DNA of 64,000 nucleotides from NCBI GenBank assembly GCA_964486045.1, contig CAZALK010000011.1:32001-96000 (forward strand). The letters are read 5' to 3'. The notes under the pieces are model-generated. The model saw nothing but the letters and a program-made list of their open reading frames with translations, had not been told where the DNA came from and ran no database searches. The stretch is from an uncultured archaeon (lineage in GTDB: Archaea; Asgardarchaeota; Lokiarchaeia; Sigyniarchaeales; SOKP01). Positions 26,980-62,930 of the stretch are shown here, piece by piece; position 1 is the first letter of the stretch; every line of letters begins with the position of its first letter. The position numbers and the translations under genes are program-made.

Positions 26980-27180
26980 TTACAATTATTTCTTTTTAAT
27001 TATTTTTCCAAGCCGAAGCTATTGATTGTATTTTAACAAATGAATGTTTCGGAAGAAAAACCTTAATTATAAAATTTGAATCTATTCTATCTATCAGAGC
27101 TATGTTTTAAAAGAATAAATTTAAGTTATTCCCAAATATAATAGTAATAGAATACGTGAATTCCTCCCTTTAAATTAACC

Positions 27181-50851: not shown

Positions 50852-51048
50852 AATCTACCACATGCTTGAATTAAATATTCGATATCTTGGAGAGGAATAA
50901 ATCTTATGCAAATAGGGCAAAATAGGTCAATAACTGCTGTACTATGTTTATTATAATTTATAATTTTGCAGTATTCTCTCCAACTTTGGTTTTTAGATAA
51001 AAAATAGTTTAATAAAAAAATAATTATAAAAAATTGAAAAAAAATGCC

Positions 51049-51875
51049 CTATTGAAAATATTGAGTGTATTCTTTACCAGTGCCTGGTAATTGTTGTTGT
51101 TGTTGATATTGTTGCGCTTTTTGAGCAAGTTCTAGCATTTTTGCTTTAATATCTTTACCTTGTTCAATAAGTTCTGAGGTCTTAATCTCTAAGTTATAAA
51201 TTTTGTTGAGAACTTCAAGAATGCTAGCTGCACCCTCTGGTGTTGGTATTTCAAGAACAGGAGTGAATAAAGCATAAGCTTGCAGTCTGTTTGTTAGTGC
51301 TTCGTTTAATACTGTAGCTTCTGGTCCAACTATTATGCCCCTATCGAGTTTGCTAATGCCAAATTTTTCAAGAGACTCCATCATTGCCTTTTCAGCGGCG
51401 TAATAAACAGGATATTCATCAATGATTCCCCGTTGCGGCATACCTTGGAAAATTACGATTTCCTTTGCCTTAACATCCTCAGATAAAGCCCAATTACATA
51501 GAGTTCTTGACAAGTCATTGTAGGCTGATGGAATTTGAAAAGGAACCTCACAGATACCAATAATCAAGTTATTCAGCGGAGAATAAAGAAGTCTAAAAGG
51601 ATGTTTTAAAACTCCTGAATAGAAAACACTTATTGGAGGAAGATATTCACTAGTTACAAATCCAATTTCTTGAACATCCGTTAATTGCTTTATTAGAGTA
51701 TTGGCAACAATAGGACCAATTAGACCGATCCCTGCAAAACCTAAGATAAATGATGCTCCTTCCTTTATATCAACAGACAAATTGTCAATTACAACGGAAC
51801 TTTTTTTGCCTTAAACCTCTATGGTGAAATACCAGATTGTAGAGTTTTTTTACAAATATATTCCTTTTTATCCAA
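51049..51875 (-). CDS. PAC2 family proteasome assembly chaperone (PbaA/PbaB-like); join(51875..51846, 51810..51049)
   Basis: GFAGIGLIGPI, PFRL, G.IVGP, PTPEGAA. A 10-codon first exon from TTG 51875 (SD GATGTGA) joins in frame after removal of the BHB intron. Confidence 0.85.
51811..51845 (-). other. 35-nt BHB intron in PAC2-family gene
   Basis: UUUGU-AAAA-AA^A-CUCUA..UAGAG-GUUU-AA^G-GCAAA: outer helix, 4-nt central helix and two 3-nt bulges. Contains an in-frame TAG; removal restores the frame. Confidence 0.72.
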
Positions 51876-52119
51876 TGTAATCACATCTCTTTGTTAATTT
51901 TTTGCTTTTTAATCACTTTAATTTATTTGTAGTATATTTGATATTAGAATTCTACCATATTAATATTAATTCTATTTTTTAAAATATCTACGGATTTTCA
52001 TTTACAAGTTAATAGTTCTATATCTTTATCTTTTATTGTTTTTTTCTTTAAAGAAGCTGTTAATAAATCTTATATGAAATTATACATTAAGCAAAAATAA
52101 AAATTATATCGTGAAAATC

Positions 52120-52635
52120 ATGGAGAAAAAAGATTTGAATGAGGGAGATGAAGCCCCGCTGTTTAAGTTAGAATCGTATAATGCCGAGACAATTGATTTG
52201 GCAGAATTTAAGGGACAAAAAGTTGTTTTAATTTTCTCTAGATATTGGGGTTGCCCAATTTGTCAGATTGATTTCAAAATTTTGATGGATCGTAAATCTG
52301 AGATTGAAGATAAGGGAGCAAAGATTTTATACATTACTCAATCAAGTGAAAAAGTAGCAAAAGAATATATTGAAAAGGAGAATATTAACTTTCCCGTTAT
52401 ACCAAGTTCTAAGGATGAATTATATGCAGAGTATGGATTAGGATTGATGAATCCGGAAACTGTTAAACAAATTCCACTTAAATTAAAAGATGTAATGAAA
52501 TATGGCTTTAAACATGGAGAATATGAAGGTTGGGAGAAACAAGGACCGGGGCAATTCGTTATAGATGAGCAAGGTATAATAATTCATACTTTAAAAGGAT
52601 GGCTTGACATTGATAGCTTAATTTCAGTGTTCTAG
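52120..52635 (+). CDS. AhpC/TSA peroxiredoxin-like protein (PRXL2-like)
   Basis: GDEAPLF, FSRYWGCPICQ, QGPGQFVIDEQG. ATG 52120 (the track uses GTG 52111). Confidence 0.85.
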   Translation: MEKKDLNEGDEAPLFKLESYNAETIDLAEFKGQKVVLIFSRYWGCPICQIDFKILMDRKSEIEDKGAKILYITQSSEKVAKEYIEKENINFPVIPSSKDELYAEYGLGLMNPETVKQIPLKLKDVMKYGFKHGEYEGWEKQGPGQFVIDEQGIIIHTLKGWLDIDSLISVF

Positions 52636-52830
52636 TTTTTGGGAAGAAAATATTACTTTTTTTTATTTTCTGGTTCTATATTATTTTTTATGAAGATATT
52701 ACCGGGATATCACTTAATTTCAAAAGAAAAATCATATGTCTTTAGTATATATGTGGATATTTCTCAGCTAATATGAGGTATTCACGATGAATTGAATGAA
52801 TCATATTAAAAACAATAAAAAAATAAGAGA

Positions 52831-53094
52831 ATGTTAAGCTCAAGAATAGAAGATTCAGAAGCCGTTCTTAATCTTACAAATTTATTTTATGAAAAAAAAG
52901 AAAATACTACCATAAAAGAAATACCTGAAATAATACAACAAAAGGCTAAATATGATAATTTTAAACTACTTACCGATATTTCGAGGGTGTTACAAAAATG
53001 CACAAATTTGACAGATAAAGATAGATTAATGTATTGTTCAAGTCAAAGATACTTTATGAAGCTATATTTACGTGAAATTAATAAACGTGAGTAG
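52831..53094 (+). CDS. small hypothetical protein
   Basis: 87-aa ATG ORF with no recognised motif. Confidence 0.4.
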   Translation: MLSSRIEDSEAVLNLTNLFYEKKENTTIKEIPEIIQQKAKYDNFKLLTDISRVLQKCTNLTDKDRLMYCSSQRYFMKLYLREINKRE

Positions 53095-53118
53095 CTTAAC
53101 TATAAATAATATATTTAA

Positions 53119-54834
53119 CTATAAATAATACTTTTTAACTTCAGTTATTACTAGATCAATTAAATCTTTAGTATTTCTTATTCCATAGAAGGTTACTTTA
53201 TCCATTAGGTTTTTAAATTTATCCTTTGGGATTTTAGATGGTCCTATAAAGAATCCTACAATCTTATGCCCTCTTTGTGCTAAATCTATCATTGTTTTCT
53301 TTGACTTAGTCCAGTTATAAATTCCAAAATCAGTGATTATAAAGATAAGAGATTTGCGTTCTGCTTTTCCGCATTGTTGAGTAATTTGTTTTATTGGTAA
53401 AATAGTGCCCCCTCCTTGATATCTTAATAATACATGTTCTGCTATTTTATAATCTGAAGTCCATTGACAAACATCTGCTCTATTTGAGAAATTAATAATG
53501 CTGAATTTTGCCCCTTTACCCGCAGCATAATGAAGAGCAGCAAACGCGGCTACTGTTGCTATATGATATGGTCCTCTCCCTCTTTCAGATCTTGATGTGT
53601 AATTCCATTTCATAGAACCAGAAGAATCCAGAACAATTAGTAGATCAGGTATTTGTTTTTCTACTAAATGACCAGGTCCTTCTTTGAATGCCCATTTTCT
53701 TGTAGTGAGATTAGGAATAATAACGGGACTATTTAATAAAGTTTGAACCACATCCAAATCTTCGATTCTATCTCCTATACGCCACACTTCTGGATAGACT
53801 GGTAACTGGCCGCCAGGTTTTTCTTCAAATATCTTGATTTCTATGAGATTTTTCGCCAATCCTCTATACCAAGTAGCTAAAGCACTTCCATCAGTCAAGA
53901 TCCCCGCTTGGGTAGCAGGTCCTCCAAATTCAGAGTATGGAATATTTTTGGCAAAATCTTCAGCTTTTTGTCTTAATTCATCCTCATTTCCTTCTTTCAA
54001 TTTATCAGAGTTTTTATTCTCTAAGGGATTATCCATTACCTCTAATATATCCCTTGGAACCTCAATAAATGTTCCCCCAGGACCTTTTCTTTTTTCACTT
54101 CCTTTATCAGTTACCCCATTTTTCCCGAGTAAAGCAAAAGTGTCATTTATCAAATTATTTAAATATCTTGCTACAGTACCTACCTTTTTCTCCCATGTAG
54201 ATTCATCTTCAAAATCTTTGAGGATTACTTTTGTAATTTTCTCGGTCAATGAGTCCATTTCCTTTAATGATTCATCTTCTAAAAGATCGACATCCCACAG
54301 TTTTTCATATGCTCGAAATAAAAATTTGGTGAAATTACTCATTGGTCCTTTACCTTTAATGTGTTTATAAGTAGTTTTTACTTCCCATGATATCAGGTTT
54401 GGGTATCTTTTATATAATTTTGTATCAATAATTAAATCTGCAAAGACATTTACAATTATAGGGGCATAATTCCGATTTACATGTTTCATTGCCGCACTAA
54501 GCAATTTAGCGTGGATTAAACCATCATAAGGAATAATTTCGTAATGTGAAACTTCATGCAGTGAGATAATATGAAAGTAGTCGATATATTCTTGATCTTC
54601 TTTAAATAGTGGAGTATTCGCAAGATTCATAGTTATTTGCCATTGATTTTCTGGATCAATGTAAAATCCCTCTAAATGGGTGTAATCAAAAACATAATTA
54701 GGTTCGTTTAAAGGTGGAAAATAAAATTCTTTTAGAGTAAGACTCCACGCATTTTTTGCTAATTCAACGAATTTTTTCTGCTTTGCAGTTAATTCTTTTG
54801 AAGCCTTGCTTTTTCTTCTTTTAGAATATGCCAA
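53119..54834 (-). CDS. VWA-domain protein with N-terminal HExxH metallopeptidase-like domain
   Basis: LHEVSHY..NVFAD..ID; MIDAS DSSGSM, GGGT, ITD. Confidence 0.85.
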   Translation of the reverse strand: MAYSKRRKSKASKELTAKQKKFVELAKNAWSLTLKEFYFPPLNEPNYVFDYTHLEGFYIDPENQWQITMNLANTPLFKEDQEYIDYFHIISLHEVSHYEIIPYDGLIHAKLLSAAMKHVNRNYAPIIVNVFADLIIDTKLYKRYPNLISWEVKTTYKHIKGKGPMSNFTKFLFRAYEKLWDVDLLEDESLKEMDSLTEKITKVILKDFEDESTWEKKVGTVARYLNNLINDTFALLGKNGVTDKGSEKRKGPGGTFIEVPRDILEVMDNPLENKNSDKLKEGNEDELRQKAEDFAKNIPYSEFGGPATQAGILTDGSALATWYRGLAKNLIEIKIFEEKPGGQLPVYPEVWRIGDRIEDLDVVQTLLNSPVIIPNLTTRKWAFKEGPGHLVEKQIPDLLIVLDSSGSMKWNYTSRSERGRGPYHIATVAAFAALHYAAGKGAKFSIINFSNRADVCQWTSDYKIAEHVLLRYQGGGTILPIKQITQQCGKAERKSLIFIITDFGIYNWTKSKKTMIDLAQRGHKIVGFFIGPSKIPKDKFKNLMDKVTFYGIRNTKDLIDLVITEVKKYYL

Positions 54835-54849
54835 TTTCTTCTTATTTTC

Positions 54850-56577
54850 TCACACTTGTTTTTGAATATATTCCAATTTATCCATTATCGACCTTAATTT
54901 TAATGCATCTGCTCCTCCAGAGATTTGAATATTAACTAAGGATTCCTCTTCTACCCCAGTAACATTGATTTCGATTAATAAATCTTCAGTACGGATTTGT
55001 TTAGTCTGCCTTTGGGCAAAAGCATCCTTCAATGGTTGATCTAAATTTAAGAATTCTGCGGCAACTTCTGCCCATATATCCTTCCAATAGGAATATTTGA
55101 TTACATAATCGGTGACAGTTTGCTTATATAATTCAAGATTACACCATTCTATTAAATCTCCTCTGTTCGGGAAATCTATTTTTTCTAAAAGATCATTTCT
55201 TATTTCAGCTAATTTGTTTATATCTCCTTTCTTTGCAGCATCTTTTATTTGTTGAGCAACAGGTGAATACTTTTTATTATTGATTGAATTTACAAATGGG
55301 AGTAAATCATATTTCACTATTAAATCATTTTTCTCAAATTTTTTCAATTCCATTAAATCGTTCTCTTTAGGGGCACCTTCGCGAAACCTTTCAGTAATTT
55401 GATAGCACTTTTCACGATTTTTAAATCGTTTTTGAATCGATTTTAGTATATTCTTAGTAAATTCGTACTTATTGCCAAAATATGGTGGTTTATCTAATTC
55501 TCTTTTTACATAAGCTACTCGATGTGAGATGACATATGGTGCAACAGTATTCACGATGTTTACATCAATGTTGTTGATTCCCAGAAGCCATGCGAGAGCT
55601 TTTGAATATCTCAGTAAGTCTTTTGCCACCCTAACGCTTAATATCGTATCAATTTTATTACAGACATTCTGAGCTGTATTAAAATGACAACCAGAACATA
55701 AACCCGCGCTTGGTTTAACATCATCTGTATTACCCTTATCTATTCTAGAACATAAAGTAAATTCTCTAATTATTGCATGAATAAAATTGTTTACTTTAGG
55801 AGTAAATTGGATTCTGTTAACAAAGTACCATATTTCCATTAACTCATCAATGGTCAAAATTTTTGGAACTTGAATTAGCTCATCAAAACTTGAATATTTG
55901 TCATCTTTCCCAGATAAAATTAACTGTAAGTCGTGACTTGTTGGCATTGAAATTGGAACGGAAATACCAAAACGGTCTAGGAATGGTTGGGATAATTCAA
56001 AAGTTCCCACATCATTTGGGTTTATTGTCGCAAAAAGAGAAAACTTACTAATTGTTATTATGGAGTCATAGTACTTCACAGTGCCCTCAGCAAGCAGGGA
56101 TAATAAAATATCTTGAGCATAAGGAGTCAAACGATTTACTTCATCTATAATTTTCCAGAAATTTGTTACAAATTGTCGCCAAACAACTTCTTCCTCACCG
56201 TCTTTCATCAGTTTGCCTAATTTTAAAGTCCCAATCAACTTTTCTTCGGTTAATTGAGGGTGTCCTCTAATAATTGAATTTTCAATATCAGCAAGTGAGG
56301 TAGCAGTAAACATACGGCCTAAAAATTTAGTTATTGAGGTCTTTCCGCCACCGTGGCCTCCAATCAAGAGCATGGCAGAATTAGGAACGATAGCATTTAA
56401 AACACATAAAGATAGTATTTCTGGTAAACTTTTTGATTGAACTTTTTTACTTTTTTCTCCCAAAAATTTAATACTCAATTCTTTATAATGAACGAAAAGT
56501 TGGTTAGCTTGGATTAAATTGATGATTTTCCAAACCTTTTTTCTCAGAATATCCTCTTCTCCTAAATTTGTCGCCAT
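54850..56577 (-). CDS. MoxR-type AAA+ ATPase
   Basis: GGHGGGKT, IIDEVNRL..QDILL, ATINP, FLDRF, SVR, VISHR. Confidence 0.9.
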   Translation of the reverse strand: MATNLGEEDILRKKVWKIINLIQANQLFVHYKELSIKFLGEKSKKVQSKSLPEILSLCVLNAIVPNSAMLLIGGHGGGKTSITKFLGRMFTATSLADIENSIIRGHPQLTEEKLIGTLKLGKLMKDGEEEVVWRQFVTNFWKIIDEVNRLTPYAQDILLSLLAEGTVKYYDSIITISKFSLFATINPNDVGTFELSQPFLDRFGISVPISMPTSHDLQLILSGKDDKYSSFDELIQVPKILTIDELMEIWYFVNRIQFTPKVNNFIHAIIREFTLCSRIDKGNTDDVKPSAGLCSGCHFNTAQNVCNKIDTILSVRVAKDLLRYSKALAWLLGINNIDVNIVNTVAPYVISHRVAYVKRELDKPPYFGNKYEFTKNILKSIQKRFKNREKCYQITERFREGAPKENDLMELKKFEKNDLIVKYDLLPFVNSINNKKYSPVAQQIKDAAKKGDINKLAEIRNDLLEKIDFPNRGDLIEWCNLELYKQTVTDYVIKYSYWKDIWAEVAAEFLNLDQPLKDAFAQRQTKQIRTEDLLIEINVTGVEEESLVNIQISGGADALKLRSIMDKLEYIQKQV

Positions 56578-56745
56578 GTCAACTATTCTCCTTAGAATTT
56601 CAATATTAAATAAAAAGCTGTTGGATTATTTAATTTTTTTCATTCATAAAATATTAGTAGACTAGTTAAGAGGTATTAACCAATGTGAAAAATTAGTAAG
56701 ATGCTTGACACTCTTTCTATTCTTAATGTTCATGAATGAAATTAT

Positions 56746-57099
56746 TTAATAATACCCTATATGACCTAAATTATTTTTTTTCTCATCTAGCGCATAAACC
56801 ATTCCCATTGATAAAGGTTCTTCGTTTTCATCTTTAGTAGATTTAGCAACTTTTTTCAATGTCTCTAGCTTCAAGATAAAAACTCTATTACATTTCTTAC
56901 ATCTTACATGGATTTCTTTGGTCTTTTTTTTATCATCTTCATATTCTTCCTTCTTAAAAGGCTCCAATAATCCTGGATCTTCATTATCACAGTTTTCCAA
57001 GAAACATTGATCTAATGAAATTTTCTCCATCCCTCGTCGTGCAAGAGAAATGTAAGCATCAGGGGGAATTTCTTTTCTTAAATCTTCACTTCCAGTCAT
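56746..57099 (-). CDS. hypothetical Cys-containing (Zn-finger-like) protein
   Basis: CFLENC...CKKC. Confidence 0.65.
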   Translation of the reverse strand: MTGSEDLRKEIPPDAYISLARRGMEKISLDQCFLENCDNEDPGLLEPFKKEEYEDDKKKTKEIHVRCKKCNRVFILKLETLKKVAKSTKDENEEPLSMGMVYALDEKKNNLGHIGYY

Positions 57100-57246
57100 T
57101 ATTAGTTTATAAAATCGTCTAAATTAATTCTTGTTATTATTTAATATAGAATTAATTAGTACAAATCTTATTAAAGTTAGTTATATGGGTCAGATAGTCT
57201 AAAAAGAATAAGCTTAATTAGCAGTTATAATTATTTAAATTGAGCT

Positions 57247-57552
57247 ATGCCTAAAAAAGAAGAATTTTCAAAAGAAACAATTGATCACATTTCTAAGTTA
57301 GCATTATTAGATTTGTCTGAAGAAGAAAAAGAAAAACTCTCAAAGCAATTAGGAGATATTCTCGATTATTTTAGAAAATTAGATGATCTTGATACTAGTA
57401 ATGTTAAACCTACAACCCATCCGATAGATGGTCTCTCCAATGTTTTCAGAGAAGATATTCCTTGGAAATCTCTTTCAAATGAAGAAGCATTAAAGAACAC
57501 AAAATACAAAAAAGATGGTTATTTTAAAGCACCGAGAATTTTAAAGCAATAG
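57247..57552 (+). CDS. gatC: Asp/Glu-tRNA amidotransferase subunit C
   Basis: HISKLALL.L, IL.YF..L..LDT, NVFRED, GYFKAPRIL. Confidence 0.95.
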   Translation: MPKKEEFSKETIDHISKLALLDLSEEEKEKLSKQLGDILDYFRKLDDLDTSNVKPTTHPIDGLSNVFREDIPWKSLSNEEALKNTKYKKDGYFKAPRILKQ

Positions 57553-58545
57553 TTATTTCTTATATTCTTCGGTTAATTTTCTTATTGCTTCAGCCATATC
57601 TCTCAATGCTTGTCGTCTTTCTATTGGAGTTAGCGTGTTAAAATCATCTCCAATATTTGTGCCAATTGTAGAAGCCATTGCTTGAAATTTTCTTTGGACT
57701 AATCCTAATACGTATCGCTCGTAATATTCTAACGCTTTAGTTAATTTCGGGTTATCCTTAATTTTCTCCCAAAGTTCCAAGGTTTCCAATGATTTTATAC
57801 CAAGATCTATTCTAAACCAACTAATAGGGAAGAGTAATTCTCTTTCTATCCCCATCTCAATAATCATAAGGTTTTCTTCATCAATATACAGCTCTGGGAT
57901 AACATCATCCTTAAACACAAGGTTATCACTCATGATATACATGTTAGCAGCTCCCCTACTTGTACATACTATACCTGTGGCAAATCCCCTAGCCATTCTC
58001 AGAACTTCACCATAATCCTCTAATTTATTACCGTTTAGATGAAGATTTAACCTTTTTTCTCCTTGAAATTCTATTTTAATCTTATGAGTTCCTTTCGCAT
58101 CTGATAAAATCTTTGGGAATAATTCTAGATCTCTTGTTTTCTTATGTGCTTCAAGTAGTTTATTTATTATTTTATAATCTAATTTTAATCCGGGAATAAC
58201 CGTGTTTTGATTGAGAAACGCATCAACTTCAAAATCGAGTAACCCATAGAATAGTTTTTTCTGATTCATTATATCATAAATAGTATCTACAATAGTTTTG
58301 ATTAGAGCCTCTGGATCTTCTCGAATCGAATCAAATTCTTTGGTTTCAAAAGTGTCAATTTGGTCCGTTAGACCCTCTTCCTGATAGAATGCGCCCCAAC
58401 TTAATTCACTGAAAATCAACCTTTCTGAATAAAGATTATGATGGCCATCAATACTAATGATACTTTTAGAGCCCCCTAATTCCACACCTAATTTAGATCC
58501 AGATGCGATTATCGCAGAAGGAGGATTATAAAATTCTATTGGCAA
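57553..58545 (-). CDS. conserved hypothetical protein
   Basis: 330-aa ORF with genome-like codon usage; no recognised family. Confidence 0.75.
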   Translation of the reverse strand: MPIEFYNPPSAIIASGSKLGVELGGSKSIISIDGHHNLYSERLIFSELSWGAFYQEEGLTDQIDTFETKEFDSIREDPEALIKTIVDTIYDIMNQKKLFYGLLDFEVDAFLNQNTVIPGLKLDYKIINKLLEAHKKTRDLELFPKILSDAKGTHKIKIEFQGEKRLNLHLNGNKLEDYGEVLRMARGFATGIVCTSRGAANMYIMSDNLVFKDDVIPELYIDEENLMIIEMGIERELLFPISWFRIDLGIKSLETLELWEKIKDNPKLTKALEYYERYVLGLVQRKFQAMASTIGTNIGDDFNTLTPIERRQALRDMAEAIRKLTEEYKK

Positions 58546-58702
58546 TTTTCAACACTTTTTATTTTAAGTACCCAAATGAATTCAATCAGTTTTTATCACG
58601 TTTTTCTATTGACTATAGAAAGACTTTATATAAAAAATTAGTGGAATCATTAATGAAAAACTAAAAAGAAAGATTTTATTTTAGAGTAGGATTAAATAAA
58701 AG

Positions 58703-58915
58703 CTATGTATCTCTTAATAACGTTATTTCAGCTGAAAACCCGGGGATCATACCTTCATAGTCCACAATTGTTTTTTCCTTTAAATTCTTCAAAATTAATC
58801 TAACTCCTTCAAATTCATCCTGACAAAGGTTTTGTAGTTTTTTATAATTAAGTTGGCCACCATTCTCCTTTAATTTTTTAATAATAAAATTCTCTTCTTG
58901 AGTCAGTTCTGACAT
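58703..58915 (-). CDS. small winged-helix protein
   Basis: LTQEENFIIKKLKENGGQL.Y.KL...LILKNLKEK.IV wHTH pattern. Confidence 0.65.
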   Translation of the reverse strand: MSELTQEENFIIKKLKENGGQLNYKKLQNLCQDEFEGVRLILKNLKEKTIVDYEGMIPGFSAEITLLRDT

Positions 58916-58957
58916 AATGTTATAGTTTCACTTATTATTTATATAATTTTTCAAAAG

Positions 58958-59467
58958 TTATTTTTTTCCAGTACTCCCAAATCCATTCAATCCTCTTTCT
59001 GATCTCGACAAATTATCTGCGTCAATGAATTTATATTCTTCCATTTTCACTAAAATTAATTGACATATTCTTTCTTCTCTTTTCAAGATAATATCTTTAT
59101 TAGAAAGATTAACAACAATTGCCATCCATTCATTTCTATATCCTGAATCAATAGTACCAGGGGAATTAACTATTGATAAACCTTCCCATAAAGCTAATCC
59201 ACTTCTAGGAACAACTTTAAAATAGTATCCTTCTGGTATTGCTGTGGCAAATCCTAAAGAACATCCTACTCTCTCTAATGGTTTTAATATATAAGAGTTT
59301 GATTCGACATCATGTAATTCTCTTTTATTTCCCTCAACAATTATCTTTTTAAATCCTTCAATTCGAGCATCCGCCCCGGCATCACCTGGTTTAGATGGTT
59401 TTGGAATTGTTATATCTTTCCTTATTTTCTTCAATGGTATTAGTAATTTTTTTGCTTTCTTACTCAT
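58958..59467 (-). CDS. dut: trimeric dUTPase
   Basis: AGAD, PRSGLA, NSPGTIDSGYR, RICQL, RG..GFGSTG. Confidence 0.95.
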   Translation of the reverse strand: MSKKAKKLLIPLKKIRKDITIPKPSKPGDAGADARIEGFKKIIVEGNKRELHDVESNSYILKPLERVGCSLGFATAIPEGYYFKVVPRSGLALWEGLSIVNSPGTIDSGYRNEWMAIVVNLSNKDIILKREERICQLILVKMEEYKFIDADNLSRSERGLNGFGSTGKK

Positions 59468-59586
59468 TATTTATCATTCATAAATAGTTTGAATTCATAA
59501 AAATACTTCCTATTAAAGAATAATTAAATTCGAATAGAAAAAAAACTTAAACTATTATTCATTTAAACAAAGTAGTAATTCTTCCG

Positions 59587-60054
59587 TTGGTGAAAATGTT
59601 GATAATTATTGATAGATATGATCCTAGAAGTGACAAAGAGCCCTTGAAAGAAATTTTCCAGAACTTTATCCAACATAAATCATATTTCTTCTCACATTGG
59701 CAAAAATTTGAAGAAGAATTGAACAGGAGAACGTTGGATCTCCAATATAGAAATTCGATGGTTGTAGCTAAAGAAGATAGAAAAATTATAGGCTTTGGCA
59801 CATATACATTATTTAGAGACTATTTAGGGAATGATAGAGTTCTTATACATCAAATCTTAACAAAAAAAGAAGACTCTTTTAGAAAAGGTATTGAAGAAAA
59901 AATTATTCGGGAAATTCAATTATATATTAAAAAGACTTTAAAAATTGATAAAGCCTATTTTATTTGCCCGGATGTGGATGGATCATTAAGATCGGTGTTT
60001 TTGAAAATGGGAATTAATAAATCTAGAAATATTTGGTATGAACATGAGATATAA
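59587..60054 (+). CDS. GNAT-fold hypothetical protein
   Basis: VVAKED.KIIGFG, FRKGIE.KII, F.KMG. Likely ATG 59596. Confidence 0.6.
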   Translation: MVKMLIIIDRYDPRSDKEPLKEIFQNFIQHKSYFFSHWQKFEEELNRRTLDLQYRNSMVVAKEDRKIIGFGTYTLFRDYLGNDRVLIHQILTKKEDSFRKGIEEKIIREIQLYIKKTLKIDKAYFICPDVDGSLRSVFLKMGINKSRNIWYEHEI

Positions 60055-60104
60055 CCTATCTCTACATATTGTCTAATTAATTTAGAAGCGTTTTAATCTC
60101 AAAT

Positions 60105-60848
60105 GTGAAAATTTTGAAAGAAACTATTGAAGAATTAATTAATAAAGCGAAATTTTTAACCGATCAAGAAAAATTTAAGGAAGCTGTTGAAATCCTTGAG
60201 GATTTATTTAAAACTAACCCTACTATTAAAAAAGTCCTTGTAGAAACCCTATTCATCTATGGTGGATATATAAATGATGAATATACCCTTCAATATGCTA
60301 AAGCAAAAGAAATATTTAAAAGAATTGTAGATATTGACCCTAATAATTATAGAGCACACTATAACCTTGGAATTGCTAATTTTAATTTAGAAAATATAGA
60401 ACAAGCAAAATTATGTTATGAAGAAGCGATTAAAATTAAACCAGATTACAAATACTGTTTTTATAATATGGGATTAATTTATGAGGGAGAAGGAAGTTTT
60501 CAAGAAGCTTTAAAATATTATGGGAAAGCATTAGAGATAGACCCTAAATTTTCTTATGCTCTAAATGCAAGAAATCATATCCTGACAGATTTAGAAAGTT
60601 TGAAAAACGGAAGTGAAAATATCAGACAACAGAAAAATCTAGACCAACTGAAATCATTACTTGAAATGTCTAAACGTATTAATATCGAGATGATTCAAAC
60701 CTTATTGAATCTTGAGAAGGAGAAATTGGTGAGGTTACTTATTGATTGGGGTGTGAGATACCAATTTGAGATTGATGGTGATTTTTTAATCATAAATAAA
60801 GATACTTTACCAGACTTAATAAAATCTTTTAATATTTTGGATTTATGA
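60105..60848 (+). CDS. TPR-repeat protein with C-terminal PCI-like winged helix
   Basis: TPRs (AHYNLG, CFYNMG, ALEIDP); C-terminal RINIEMIQTLLNL..LIDW..FEIDGDFL. Confidence 0.75.
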   Translation: MKILKETIEELINKAKFLTDQEKFKEAVEILEDLFKTNPTIKKVLVETLFIYGGYINDEYTLQYAKAKEIFKRIVDIDPNNYRAHYNLGIANFNLENIEQAKLCYEEAIKIKPDYKYCFYNMGLIYEGEGSFQEALKYYGKALEIDPKFSYALNARNHILTDLESLKNGSENIRQQKNLDQLKSLLEMSKRINIEMIQTLLNLEKEKLVRLLIDWGVRYQFEIDGDFLIINKDTLPDLIKSFNILDL

Positions 60849-60893
60849 CATTGCTACTAAGTAGAAGTCCTTTACGCTTTATTAAAAGAATTA

Positions 60894-61022
60894 TTATTTC
60901 GTTAATTTATTATGAATACTATAGCAGATGATGAATACTATAATGAGAATTACACCCCCAATGATATACTGGACAGTTGCGGGGTTACCCAGTAAATCTG
61001 CGAAAAGGTCAGATTGAAACAT
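60894..61022 (-). CDS. small single-TM protein (42 aa)
   Basis: Manual ORF MFQSDLFADLLGNPATVQYIIGGVILIIVFIICYSIHNKLTK. Confidence 0.55.
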   Translation of the reverse strand: MFQSDLFADLLGNPATVQYIIGGVILIIVFIICYSIHNKLTK

Positions 61023-61165
61023 AGAAAAATTTTATTAAAAGTTTTAAAGTCTTAATATTACTAGTCATATTTAAAATTTAACAATTGTTTTCATACGGAA
61101 ATTTCACCGTGAGATAAAAACGAATACACATAAAGAAAAAAAAAATAAATTGTAGTTAATAATTA

Positions 61166-61434
61166 TTATCTTTCCAATTGGAAGTTGACTTGAACTCTCA
61201 CTCTATTCACAAGCTACACGAAAAGTGTCTCTTTATATATGAGCTTGTCAACATCCTCTTTAACTTTAACGTCCGATTCAATTATCTGAATATTTCTAAT
61301 TCCACGTAAAGTTTTTTTAGCTTCTTCATATGCGTTTTTAGTTGAATAAAACATGAGTATTTTTATCCTTTAACCGCATCTGCCCAATTTTTTTCACTAG
61401 TTGATACTAATTGAATTGACTTATAAACTGGCAT
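61166..61434 (-). CDS. dodecin (flavin-binding), interrupted by two BHB introns; join(61434..61370, 61337..61235, 61204..61166)
   Basis: Spliced product MPVYKSIQLVSTSEKNWADAVKNAYEEAKKTLRGIRNIQIIESDVKVKEDVDKLIYRVRVQVNFQLER (68 aa) shows the dodecin pattern YK.I.LV.TS..W..A..A..TLR..YRV...F.L. AGTGA SD upstream. Confidence 0.88.
61205..61234 (-). other. 30-nt BHB intron 2 of dodecin gene
   Basis: GCUC-AUAU-AU^A-AAG..ACAC/GUGU..CUU-GUGA-AU^A-GAGU. Carries an in-frame TAG; removal gives LIYRVRV. Confidence 0.8.
61338..61369 (-). other. 32-nt BHB-type intron 1 of dodecin gene
   Basis: GGUU-AA^A-GGAUAAAA..UUUUAUUC-AACU-AA^A. Carries an in-frame TAA and shifts the frame; removal gives AVKNAY. Confidence 0.8.
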
Positions 61435-61646
61435 TCTAGATCACTTTTTTTTTAATATTTTTGGATGTTAATATGTTTTTTTGTAAGATAATTTGTTATA
61501 GGGTACTATTTAAATATTTCTTAGAAAACTCATAATCCTAAAAATTTATAATGAGAAAATATAATCTCATTGATATTATCTTAAATCTAGAAAAAATCAA
61601 AAAAAAAATTGAAAAGTGAATATAATTGTTATCAATAATTCAATGA

Positions 61647-62930
61647 TTAAGCGTCGAGGTTTTCGATTAATGTTGCGACACCCTGACCACCTCCGACACA
61701 AGCATTAGCAACGCCGTATTTTGCTTTCTTATCTTTAAGTATTCGTGCTAATGTGCCTGGTAATCTTACCATTGTTGAGCCCAACGGATGACCAATTGCT
61801 GTTGAGCCTCCCATTACGTTGACTCTCTCTTCTGGAATATTGAAAGCTTTCATACAATTTAATGCTACGATACAGAAAGCCTCGTTAATTTCCCAGTAAT
61901 CTATATCATCAGCAGTCAAACCAGCATATTTTAAAGCTTTTTCAGATGCAGGTACAGGACCTCTACCCATAACAGTGGGATCTACACCTGAAAAACCAAT
62001 TGAAACGATTCTAGCCATCGGCTCAATACCTCTTTGTTTTGCTTCTTCTGCTTCCATTAATAAACAAGCTGTTGCACCAGCATTCAATGGAGAGGAATTC
62101 CCTGCGGTGATAACTCCTTCCTTAGTGCCTTCTCGCTTCTCATAGCCCTCTTTTCCTCCATTTTGTTCTAAAAAGAATGGTCTTGATAACCTACGTAATC
62201 CTGCAACACCTTCTAAAGTAGATTTTCTTGCCGCCATATCCCTATCAATCATCATCTTTTCTTCAACATTTCCCTCAACATGACCTTCAATAGGAATAAT
62301 TTCACCTTTAAACCATCCTTTTTCAGTATTTTCTACTGTTAAATTATGAGCTCGCACACCAAATTTGTCCATATCTTCTTTGGTGAATGCAGGAACTTCT
62401 TGTTCATAAAGTTTTTGAGCTGTTTGAATCATATTACTTGTTGTCAAGAAGTCTTGCCGTGGGCGATACCATTCGCTCTTTTTATCGATTATTTTTAAGT
62501 TTGGAGTGATGTGTGTGTTTTGCATACTAACACGGGTCATATGCTCCACACCAGTTGATAATACACATTTACTAAATCCAGTCATGATTTCCATGATGCC
62601 CATATGCATCCCTGCTCCTGCGCTCCCACATTGTTTATCAAGAAACACTGAGGAAGCTCTAAATGGCATATCGGCTAAAAATGCAGGGGTTCTGCCGCCA
62701 TAACTCCAGTTTTCGCCAACACCCATTGCACTTCCAACAGTGATTTCATCGACATCCTCTTTAGTAATGCCCTTATCTGCAAGTTTTCCCTCAAAGAATT
62801 TTAATAATAGTGTGCCAAGAAGTTCATCTCCACGGATCTCGCCAAAAACATCACGTTCTGGTTGTCTTGGTCTGGATCGCGAAAAAGCGGTTCTCGCATA
62901 ATCAATCATCCATACTTCTTTTAAGTCCAT
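61647..62930 (-). CDS. acetyl-CoA C-acyltransferase (thiolase)
   Basis: KQCGSAG, GVEHM, TAGNSSPLNAGA, WEINEAF, GHPLG, CVGGGQG. Confidence 0.95.
   Translation of the reverse strand: MDLKEVWMIDYARTAFSRSRPRQPERDVFGEIRGDELLGTLLLKFFEGKLADKGITKEDVDEITVGSAMGVGENWSYGGRTPAFLADMPFRASSVFLDKQCGSAGAGMHMGIMEIMTGFSKCVLSTGVEHMTRVSMQNTHITPNLKIIDKKSEWYRPRQDFLTTSNMIQTAQKLYEQEVPAFTKEDMDKFGVRAHNLTVENTEKGWFKGEIIPIEGHVEGNVEEKMMIDRDMAARKSTLEGVAGLRRLSRPFFLEQNGGKEGYEKREGTKEGVITAGNSSPLNAGATACLLMEAEEAKQRGIEPMARIVSIGFSGVDPTVMGRGPVPASEKALKYAGLTADDIDYWEINEAFCIVALNCMKAFNIPEERVNVMGGSTAIGHPLGSTMVRLPGTLARILKDKKAKYGVANACVGGGQGVATLIENLDA

What the first reader, a model, noticed from the sequence alone, without database searches (positions are those of the whole stretch)
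51811..61369. Three similar-sized mRNA introns within 10 kb imply a genome-wide class of hidden micro-introns
Seen: the three inserts are unrelated in sequence but share features. All are 30-35 nt, start with A, end in AA or AU, have A-rich 3-nt bulges (AAA/AUA/AAG), form an internal hairpin and contain an in-frame stop. Inference: this density suggests many 'truncated' or 'missing' small genes in such genomes are spliced by the tRNA-splicing machinery with relaxed specificity (mismatches tolerated in the central helix). This bears on the pre-eukaryotic history of split genes. In-frame stop-free introns would be invisible to my manual scan.
Basis: inference. Interest (0 to 1): 0.85.

Follow-up and report, generated by a model that had tools for sequence, protein, structure and literature searches.

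The report
tRNA-type micro-introns split Asgard genes
Two genes in this Asgard archaeon are interrupted by three 30-35-base hairpin inserts shaped like tRNA introns, part of a set of roughly 50-100 such inserts in its protein genes, a kind of gene splitting that the papers I could search document for only one archaeal gene (cbf5).

Summary
Observation confirmed; interpretation supported, but no RNA was seen.

**The three inserts.** They are exact insertions relative to uninterrupted orthologues: PAC2 51845-51811 (35 nt), dodecin 61369-61338 (32 nt) and 61234-61205 (30 nt). Each fits a bulge-helix-bulge (BHB). Cutting after the second bulge base gives the orthologous protein to the residue.

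**Statistics.** For seven inserts defined by homology alone, random placements score as well at P = 5e-5 to 0.03 each (combined 1.5e-15).

**Genome-wide.** About 20 inserts were checked individually, including EF-2, RpoA', RNase HII, thiolase, mevalonate kinase and RhaA. A frame-control test gives an excess of 75 +/- 22 in-frame BHB inserts, peaking at 30 nt. That is tens to about 100 per 5.2 Mb, not thousands.

**Covariation.** The RNase HII intron, conserved across the family, shows compensatory changes in 7 of 13 pairs, including the exon-intron helix.

**Enzymes.** The genome encodes a two-subunit EndA (catalytic alpha with a Crenarchaea-type lysine loop, beta lacking the catalytic His) and RtcB.

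**Turnover.** Dodecin has five different intron sites among congeners.

**Limits.** This scan has noted the same class in at least 98 other Asgard genomes. The searchable literature documents coding-sequence BHB splicing only for cbf5.

The parts
51846..51875 (-). PAC2 (proteasome-assembly-chaperone family) exon 1: TTG start plus 9 codons (MDKKEYICKK). The last 6 nt are central-helix strand H_A (51851-51848, AAAA) plus the first two bulge bases (51847-51846).
   Evidence: It aligns to the N-terminus MVKKEYIC[EDK]K of 15 uninterrupted orthologues. A GTGAT Shine-Dalgarno-like motif lies 5 nt upstream.
51811..51845 (-). PAC2 micro-intron, 35 nt. Layout: A + inner stem CUCUA/UAGAG around an 18-nt loop + H_B GUUU (51816-51813) + AA. 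In-frame TAG. Outer helix UUUGU (51856-51852) / GCAAA (51809-51805).
   Evidence: Absent from all 15 orthologues, and recovered as an exact 35-nt window-specific insertion against G013 and G004. The minimum-energy fold shows the outer helix, bulges and inner stem. Random-placement P = 0.007.
51049..51810 (-). PAC2 exon 2 (GKKSSVVIDNL... to the stop).
   Evidence: Stop-to-stop ORF. Residues 1-253 match the orthologues at 72-88% identity.
61370..61434 (-). Dodecin exon 1 (MPVYKSIQLVSTSEKNWADAV + 2 nt of the Lys codon).
   Evidence: Pfam Dodecin positions 1-20. Orthologue alignment.
61338..61369 (-). Dodecin micro-intron 1, 32 nt. Central helix GGUU/AACU, 5' bulge AAA, 8-bp inner stem, enlarged 3' bulge (relaxed HBh' type). 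In-frame TAA.
   Evidence: Exact insertion against G004 and about 26 congeners. Shared only with G013, where the central helix carries a compensatory U-A to C-G change. P = 1e-4.
61235..61337 (-). Dodecin exon 2 (third base of the Lys codon, then NAYEEAKKTLRGIRNIQIIESDVKVKEDVDKLIY).
   Evidence: Pfam Dodecin positions 20-48. Orthologue alignment.
61205..61234 (-). Dodecin micro-intron 2, 30 nt. Outer helix GCUC/GAGU, weak central helix AUAU/GUGA (A.A mismatch and two G.U pairs), bulges AUA/AUA. In-frame TAG.
   Evidence: Exact 30-nt window-specific insertion against G013 and G004. Removing it restores the conserved C-terminal strand ...LIY|RVRVQVNFQLER. Weakest of the three: P = 0.03, and there is a competing minimum-energy hairpin.
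61166..61204 (-). Dodecin exon 3 (RVRVQVNFQLER + TAA), followed by a T-rich run.
   Evidence: Identical or near-identical to the C-terminus of uninterrupted orthologues. The T10 run downstream is visible.

Best explanation
The three inserts are archaeal bulge-helix-bulge (BHB) introns inside protein-coding transcripts. They belong to a population of roughly 50-100 such micro-introns in this Promethearchaeota (Asgard, Loki-type) genome.

**Anatomy (shown).**
- The last 6 nt of the upstream exon supply one strand of a 4-bp helix plus two bulge bases.
- The intron supplies the third bulge base and a hairpin, typically a 9-bp stem with a 5-nt loop.
- The intron then supplies the complementary 4-nt strand and two more bulge bases.

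**Mechanism (inferred).**
1. The two-subunit splicing endonuclease EndA (catalytic alpha with a lysine-bearing loop, non-catalytic beta) cuts after the second base of each 3-nt bulge.
2. RtcB joins the exons and probably circularises the intron.
3. Only then can full-length PAC2 and dodecin be translated.
4. The in-frame stop inside each intron would terminate ribosomes on unspliced RNA, so no insert-bearing protein is made.

**Evolution.** Presence or absence differs between congeneric species, so introns are gained and precisely lost on short time scales.
For: 1. **Exact junctions.** Canonical BHB cuts give products identical at the junction to uninterrupted orthologues: PAC2 and dodecin.
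2. **Non-random register.** For seven inserts whose limits come from homology alone, per-insert P is 5e-5 to 0.03 and Fisher combined P is 1.5e-15.
3. **Same architecture in essential or single-copy genes of this genome.**
   - EF-2 P-loop and RpoA' zinc-clamp motif.
   - RNase HII, thiolase, BcrAD-type ATPase, CdhA, RpoA' and RhaA, each with one Pfam alignment running across the insert.
   - Mevalonate kinase, MoxR and AMP phosphorylase motifs restored.
4. **Frame test.** Where a BHB-like segment bridges two coding stretches, the best BHB is in the rescuing frame more often than in the two shifted frames. Counts are 337 vs 269/255 at score >=18, for lengths both divisible and not divisible by 3, with the peak at L=30 (43 vs 21.5).
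5. **Covariation.** The RNase HII intron of this genome is conserved in the family.
   - In 24 distinct sequences, 92.6% of cells pair in the BHB register, against 30-39% when the partners are slid.
   - 7 of 13 pairs have changes on both sides, 2 of them in the exon-intron helix.
   - 0 of 500 shuffles reach any of the five measures.
   - Smaller cases: dodecin intron 1 U-A to C-G and the EF-2 site-2 stem G-C to A-U.
6. **Exon constraint.** Both genomes with the EF-2 P-loop intron have GCG CAT before it. The 27 intron-less orthologues have GCT, GCC or GCA.
7. **Enzymes are present.**
   - EndA alpha has Tyr/His/Lys and a loop aligned to the A. pernix Crenarchaea-specific loop, including its Lys.
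   - EndA beta lacks the catalytic His.
   - RtcB is present.
   - Published work ties this EndA type to relaxed BHB cleavage and reports it in Asgard (PMC5829648, PMC6379350).
Against: - No RNA evidence.
- Dodecin intron 2 has a weak central helix (one mismatch, two G.U) and a competing minimum-energy hairpin. It occurs only in this genome, so on its own it could be a disabling insertion in a non-essential gene.
- The three focal introns have too few orthologous copies for a covariation test. The strong covariation comes from another intron of the same class.
- The genome is a MAG with 7.8% estimated contamination.
Confidence: 0.85

Rival explanations
1. The inserts are removed from the RNA, but by something other than EndA/RtcB: an unknown endonuclease or ligase that recognises the hairpin.
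For: No enzyme assay or RNA data exist here. Two of the three focal motifs deviate from the strict BHB.
Against: The cut positions required by homology coincide with the canonical EndA positions, after the second base of each bulge and 4 bp apart, in about 20 cases. Covariation maintains exactly the 4-bp helix and inner stem that EndA reads. EndA with the broad-specificity loop and RtcB are encoded.
Confidence: 0.06
2. The inserts are disabling insertions: the interrupted genes are pseudogenes or decaying copies and are not rescued.
For: Each insert carries in-frame stops. Dodecin and PAC2 are not essential. Dodecin intron 2 and the PAC2 insert are unique to this genome.
Against: The same kind of insert sits in conserved motifs of EF-2 and of RpoA' and RNase HII, each of which turned up only once in the searches run. 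The flanking exons carry no other lesions and stay 88-94% identical to orthologues. Orthologous inserts persist across species and genera with compensatory changes.
Confidence: 0.04
3. Ribosomes hop over the inserts (programmed translational bypassing, as in phage T4 gene 60 or the mitochondrial 'byp' elements).
For: The inserts are short, hairpin-forming, and have a stop codon early in the gap. Dodecin intron 1 can be written with AAA at both take-off and landing positions.
Against: Across 20 checked inserts, the codon before the insert and the codon before the resumption point do not match in the register tested, apart from the dodecin intron 1 reading given under evidence for. Frame-shifting lengths (31, 32, 35) are resolved exactly by BHB cuts. 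Covariation involves the exon-intron helix, not codon identity.
Confidence: 0.03
4. Assembly or binning artefact: the inserts are not in the organism's DNA.
For: The genome is a short-read MAG. The only run holding the whole locus may be its own source.
Against: Inserts at the same sites, with sequence differences, occur in independently assembled MAGs carrying different isolate and accession prefixes: dodecin intron 1 in G013, EF-2 site 2 in 7 genomes, and RNase HII in more than 25 genomes including single-contig assemblies.
Confidence: 0.01

Closest known systems
BHB intron in the cbf5 (pseudouridine synthase) pre-mRNA of Crenarchaeota and some Thaumarchaeota (Watanabe 2002; Yoshinari 2006; Yokobori 2009, PMC2738675)
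   Same: It is a protein-coding transcript interrupted by a tRNA-type BHB intron. It is linked to the hetero-oligomeric (alpha-beta)2 EndA. Presence and absence vary among relatives.
   Different: That is one gene with one intron, in TACK lineages. Here there are tens of genes per genome in an Asgard lineage, none of them cbf5 among those checked. The introns share a stereotyped roughly 30-nt hairpin with in-frame stops, genes can carry several (dodecin, EF-2, CdhA), and sites differ between congeneric species.
Archaeal tRNA introns at canonical and non-canonical positions, including the heavily interrupted tRNA genes of Asgard archaea (PMC5829648; bioRxiv 10.64898/2026.10.13.758758)
   Same: Same motif (4-bp helix, two 3-nt bulges, relaxed HBh' variants), same presumed enzymes, similar small size (median 22-23 nt reported for Asgard tRNA introns), and repeated lineage-specific gains.
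   Different: The host RNA is an mRNA, so there is no tRNA body to help recognition. The upstream half of the central helix is coding sequence under amino-acid constraint. The preprint does not mention mRNAs.
Unconventional cytoplasmic splicing of HAC1/XBP1 mRNA (Ire1 endonuclease plus tRNA ligase/RtcB); from my own knowledge plus the reference list of PMC5829648
   Same: Protein-only endonuclease plus tRNA-type ligase acting on an mRNA. A short intron is defined by RNA stem-loops. Splicing is required for the full-length protein.
   Different: The endonuclease (Ire1 kinase/RNase) and the recognition motif are different, and that is a single stress-regulated target. Here nothing shows regulation.
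Programmed translational bypass elements (T4 gene 60; mitochondrial 'byps'); from my own knowledge
   Same: Short stop-containing hairpin inserts inside coding sequence that leave the protein intact.
   Different: Bypass elements need matching take-off and landing codons. That was tested here and not met.

Membership tests
Archaeal BHB intron (EndA substrate) | [quoted passage not shown] | tested here: met
   PAC2: full hBHBh' with one A.G mismatch in H. Dodecin 1: H of 4 bp, 5' bulge of 3 nt, 3' bulge enlarged (HBh'-like). Dodecin 2: both bulges 3 nt, H with one mismatch. 15 of the 17 other checked introns have 4 of 4 pairs in H.
Archaeal BHB intron (EndA substrate) | Cleavage after the second bulge base on each strand yields the functional RNA. 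| tested here: met
   These cut sites reproduce the orthologous protein exactly at all three junctions and restore conserved motifs or Pfam alignments in about 17 other genes.
Archaeal BHB intron (EndA substrate) | The helices are maintained by selection (compensatory substitutions). | tested here: inconclusive
   Met for the class: the RNase HII intron has 7 of 13 pairs with double changes and 0/500 shuffles. For the three focal introns there is only one compensatory pair (dodecin 1 vs G013), because there are too few orthologous copies.
Archaeal BHB intron (EndA substrate) | The genome encodes a splicing endonuclease able to read relaxed motifs, and an RtcB ligase. | tested here: met
   Alpha (201 aa; best PDB match A. 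pernix 3P1Z_B, 1.4e-33; loop with conserved Lys) plus beta (200 aa, no catalytic His). RtcB scores 557 bits.
Archaeal BHB intron (EndA substrate) | Spliced RNA and/or a circular intron observed. | not testable with these tools
cbf5-type pre-mRNA intron (orthologous family) | Located in the cbf5 gene at the conserved site. | tested here: not met
   The hosts are PAC2 and dodecin, and EF-2, RpoA', RNase HII and others elsewhere in the genome. The mechanism is the same but the introns are not orthologous.
Programmed translational bypass element | Matching take-off and landing codons flanking the gap. | tested here: not met
   No match in the register tested for the 20 inserts; one (dodecin intron 1) matches only by boundary sliding.
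Self-splicing group I/II introns or other curated RNA families | Ribozyme core detectable. | tested here: not met
   The inserts are 30-35 nt. An Rfam scan of 51000-62000 at E<=1 gives only two sub-threshold snoRNA-like hits elsewhere.

The most novel reading that the evidence does not exclude
These micro-introns are not relics. They are an actively renewing population, created de novo at many coding sites by a dedicated route that leaves only a structure: a roughly 23-nt hairpin plus 4 nt complementary to the upstream exon. One candidate route is reverse action of EndA/RtcB followed by reverse transcription. Another is templated hairpin insertion that is kept only where the flank completes a BHB.

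On this reading the closest archaeal relatives of eukaryotes already ran a protein-only 'interrupted gene plus obligatory mRNA splicing' regime. The in-frame stops would act as a fail-safe that couples translation to splicing.
Probability: 0.25. Interest if true: 0.9.

Novelty: new variant of a known kind. Interest (0 to 1): 0.8.

Why it matters
**Annotation.** Standard gene callers will report EF-2, RpoA', RNase HII, dodecin, PAC2 and dozens of other genes in these Asgard MAGs as truncated, split or missing. That distorts metabolic reconstructions and gene-content phylogenies of the lineage used to infer the archaeal ancestor of eukaryotes.

**Biology.** In the papers I could search, obligatory splicing of a coding sequence by the tRNA-splicing machinery is documented for one archaeal gene family only (cbf5). 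A genome with roughly 10^2 such introns, turning over between congeneric species, changes that picture.
- Intron gain and loss in protein genes, and the coordination of splicing with coupled transcription-translation, become directly testable in a prokaryote.
- It offers a concrete non-spliceosomal precedent for split genes on the eukaryotic stem. Whether it has any historical connection to eukaryotic introns is not shown.

Tried and rejected
1. **Crude frame statistics without a gene map.** All BHB-like hits, dicodon filter only, and same-frame stop islands gave no excess of in-frame joins. The background of off-frame ORFs and adjacent genes swamps tens of true cases. Real introns also leak into the 'control' frames through alternative registers. 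The signal appeared only after building a greedy gene map and taking the best BHB per site.
2. **RNA evidence.**
   - The look-up of sequencing runs (any) listed no RNA holder for the dodecin locus.
   - Exact searches for the spliced EF-2 and RpoA' junctions in metagenome contigs found nothing.
   - None of this bears on expression either way.
3. **Stop-free introns.** Strict 30-nt BHB hits inside open frames are no more frequent than at neighbouring lengths (371 vs 331-398). The window-vs-congener alignment shows no other coding insert of 25-40 nt.
4. **False candidates from my scan.**
   - Window 26971 (L29) is a natural gene end.
   - C1:155021 (L36) joins what look like two adjacent genes, DUF5981 and MTHFR.
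   - Many listed candidates with an 8-20-codon second 'exon' are probably chance.
5. **E2 lead.** An E2 ubiquitin-conjugating gene was checked because another report claims a spliced E2 intron elsewhere. The E2 genes here show no insert.
6. **Phylum-wide GTP_EFTU search.** It was meant to compare 'stops inside' rates between genera, but the output was truncated to 150 of 591 matches and was uninformative.
7. **Translational bypass, pseudogene and artefact readings.** See rival explanations.
8. **ARAGORN intron calls.** They were not used as evidence for EndA specificity because they look unreliable.
Full report
**What the window is.** The window is G000:C11:32001-96000 of a 5.18-Mb, 45-contig MAG with about 31% G+C and 99% completeness. 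A marine-sediment metagenome run holds the dodecin locus and may be the MAG's source. The nearest public records are 'Promethearchaeota archaeon' MAGs, that is Asgard of the Loki type.

**The three inserts.** All lie on the minus strand.

1. **PAC2-family gene.**
   - A 10-codon exon (TTG at 51875, ending 51846) is followed by 35 nt (51845-51811) carrying an in-frame TAG.
   - The long ORF then starts at 51810.
   - Fifteen relatives have an uninterrupted N-terminus MVKKEYIC[E/D/K]K-GK[K/R]S.
   - Ours, after removing exactly these 35 nt, reads MDKKEYICKK-GKKSS.
2. **Dodecin.**
   - Pfam Dodecin matches two separate minus-strand pieces, profile positions 1-20 and 20-48.
   - Removing 61369-61338 (32 nt, TAA) and 61234-61205 (30 nt, TAG) gives a 68-aa protein.
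   - That protein is 88-94% identical to the uninterrupted dodecins of about 26 congeners, with both junctions (ADAVK|NAYEE and KLIY|RVRVQVNFQLER) matching.
   - A T-run terminator follows the third exon.

A model-free DNA alignment of the window against two congeners covered about 48 kb vs G013 and about 12 kb vs G004. It returns these three as the only window-specific 25-40-nt insertions inside coding sequence.

**Geometry.**
- In each case the last six exon bases are a 4-nt helix strand plus two bulge bases.
- The intron is one bulge base, a hairpin, the complementary 4-nt strand and two bulge bases.
- This is the tRNA arrangement, with cuts after the second base of each bulge.

| Intron | Outer helix | Central helix | Bulges | Inner stem |
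|---|---|---|---|---|
| PAC2 | 5 bp | AAAA/GUUU, one A.G mismatch | 3 nt each | 5 bp |
| Dodecin 1 | AUGC/GCAU (4 bp) | GGUU/AACU | 5' AAA; 3' is 6 nt | 8 bp |
| Dodecin 2 | 4 bp | AUAU/GUGA, one mismatch and two G.U | AUA/AUA | interrupted |

Dodecin intron 1 is of the relaxed HBh' type. The minimum-energy fold of dodecin intron 2 is a competing hairpin.

**Chance.** I took seven inserts whose limits come from homology alone: these three, three further dodecin inserts in congeners, and one EF-2 insert. For each I allowed every boundary shift that gives the same mRNA. The BHB score in that register is reached by 0.005-3% of random genomic placements, and Fisher combined P is 1.5e-15.

**Is there a genome-wide class?** I scanned both strands of the whole genome for the descriptor at lengths 14-120 and got 7.1 million hits, so the motif alone is non-specific.

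- Naive counts of 'ORF-joining' hits showed no excess over frame-shifted controls.
- I then built a greedy map of 4,861 coding ORF fragments covering 86% of the genome. I kept only sites whose flanks agree with that map, and took the best-scoring BHB per site.
- After this the rescuing frame is over-represented: 337 vs 269/255 at score >=18, an excess of 75 +/- 22.
- The excess is present for lengths divisible by 3 (33 +/- 14) and not divisible by 3 (42 +/- 17), and it peaks at L=30 (43 vs 21.5).

The top of the list restores textbook motifs:
- RNase HII GIDEAG|RGP
- EF-2 AH|IDHGKTT
- RpoA' GHFGH|IELARP
- thiolase NYCASGM|DAF
- mevalonate kinase ILFGE|HFVVYG
- MoxR DEIDKAD|
- BcrAD-type ND|KCAAGTGRF
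- AMP phosphorylase DKHS|TGG
- a Rab-like GTPase
- CdhA (two introns)
- FwdA
- two AIR-synthase-family genes
- RhaA

Reading the in-frame inserts through as X, a single Pfam alignment runs across the insert in RNase HII, Thiolase_N, BcrAD_BadFG, Prismane, RNA_pol_Rpb1_1 and RhaA.

Properties of the 20 checked introns:
- 13 are exactly 30 nt, typically 1 + 9-bp stem + 5-nt loop + 9 + 4 + 2.
- The others are 27, 31, 32 or 35 nt.
- The bulges are A-rich.
- All carry in-frame stops, although my scan required one.
- I saw no shared primary sequence by eye.

The class is real. It numbers tens to about 100 per genome, not thousands, so three in 10 kb is a local cluster. Stop-free 30-nt BHB hits inside open frames are not enriched.

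**Selection on the structure.** The RNase HII intron of this genome is conserved through much of the family, and absent from some members and from other families at this site.

- In 24 distinct sequences, 92.6% of cells pair in the BHB register, against 30-39% for slid registers.
- 7 of 13 pairs show changes on both sides.
- Two of those pairs lie in the helix formed between coding exon and intron, for example exon UGGU/intron GCCA against AGGG/CCUU and GGGG/ACCU.
- None of 500 shuffles reaches the observed value on any of the five measures.

Smaller signals point the same way.
- Dodecin intron 1 and its only orthologue (G013) differ by a compensatory U-A to C-G change in the central helix.
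- The EF-2 site-2 intron, shared by seven congeners, has one G-C to A-U exchange and is 96% paired.
- Both genomes with the EF-2 P-loop intron have GCG CAT before it. The 27 intron-less orthologues use other Ala codons.

**Machinery.** Two EndA paralogues are encoded.
- One is 201 aa. Its best solved match is the A. pernix catalytic subunit 3P1Z_B.
- It keeps the Tyr/His/Lys triad.
- Its loop GSPLGINKPR aligns with the Crenarchaea-specific loop, including the lysine.
- The other is 200 aa and lacks the catalytic His, so it is a structural beta subunit.
- RtcB is present.

This is the (alpha-beta)2 type. According to PMC5829648 and PMC6379350, it is reported in Asgard and TACK archaea and, through that loop, accepts relaxed BHB motifs.

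**Turnover.**

| Locus | Where the intron occurs |
|---|---|
| Dodecin (204 nt) | Five different positions among about 31 congeners. Ours has two. G013 shares one. G004, G016 and G031 each have another, all with perfect 4-bp central helices. |
| EF-2 P-loop site | G000 and G018 only |
| EF-2 second site | Seven other congeners |
| EF-2, sampled genomes of other genera | None |
| PAC2 | None of 15 relatives |

The patterns are not nested: G018 lacks the dodecin intron that G013 shares with us, and G013 lacks the P-loop intron. So both gains and precise losses, or allelic replacement, must occur.

**Rivals.**
- Translational bypassing fails the take-off/landing test.
- Pseudogenisation is hard to reconcile with inserts in conserved motifs of EF-2 and of RpoA' and RNase HII (each found only once in the searches run), with otherwise intact exons, and with covariation.
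- An assembly artefact is excluded by recurrence in independently assembled MAGs.
- No Rfam family matches the region.
- What remains open is the RNA-level proof.
- Exact searches for spliced EF-2 and RpoA' junctions in metagenome contigs found nothing.
- For dodecin intron 2 alone I would put splicing at about 0.7.

**Literature and earlier notes.**
- Full-text searches found coding-sequence BHB splicing only for cbf5 (PMC2738675 and the references in PMC5829648).
- An October 2026 preprint describes heavily interrupted Asgard tRNA genes but does not mention mRNAs.
- This scan's own notebook holds many first-reader notes of the same class on other windows of this genome.
- It also holds 452 similar notes in at least 98 genomes.
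- Two follow-ups there state that public RNA data contain exactly spliced messages in other Asgard genomes. I could not test those, and they are not counted as evidence here.

**Verdict.** It is a new variant of a known kind, and interest is high because it makes mRNA splicing by the tRNA machinery, and intron gain and loss, testable in the archaeal relatives of eukaryotes.

Noticed in passing
G000:C11:28707-28737 (3.3 kb before the window start; locus L070:1508-1538): A 31-nt BHB insert with TAA splits the mevalonate kinase motif GKxILFGE|HFVVYG. Exon 2 carries GHMP_kinases_N.
   Followed up: partly
L036 (G004), L038 (G016), L039 (G031), L037 (G013): dodecin genes of congeners: The 204-nt dodecin gene carries 30-32-nt BHB inserts at five different positions across the genus. 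That is an unusually high density of independent insertions in one small gene.
   Followed up: partly
L087, L098, L100-L102, L105, L107 (EF-2 of seven congeners): A second EF-2 intron (30 nt, MTDSD|DEEQER) is absent from this genome but shared by seven congeners. G018 carries both EF-2 introns.
   Followed up: yes
whole genome G000: ARAGORN finds only 31 tRNA genes in a 99%-complete genome, many with odd intron calls and implausible 'tRNA-Stop/Pyl' labels. This is consistent with tRNA genes too interrupted for standard detection, as a recent preprint reports for other Asgard families.
   Followed up: no
G000 contigs C40 (5.8 kb) and C45 (2.4 kb): These contigs have G+C of 0.58-0.59 against about 0.31 for the rest of the MAG. 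They are probably mis-binned contamination.
   Followed up: no
L049:571-600 (PAC2 orthologue, isolate ABR15); also L048, L042, L044, L057: The conserved PAC2 N-terminus begins with ATA in one relative and with GTG or TTG in others, where most have ATG. This fits a first-reader note on ATA starts elsewhere in this window.
   Followed up: no
window 54847 (junction of the MoxR-like and vWA genes) vs L108: G013 has 33 extra nt exactly between the MoxR stop and the vWA start. This is probably just a spacer or start-site difference, not an intron.
   Followed up: partly
window 57179-57208, 61565-61594, 26999-27029: Several roughly 30-nt presence/absence differences between congeners also lie in intergenic DNA. 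Whether they are related to the coding micro-introns was not examined.
   Followed up: no
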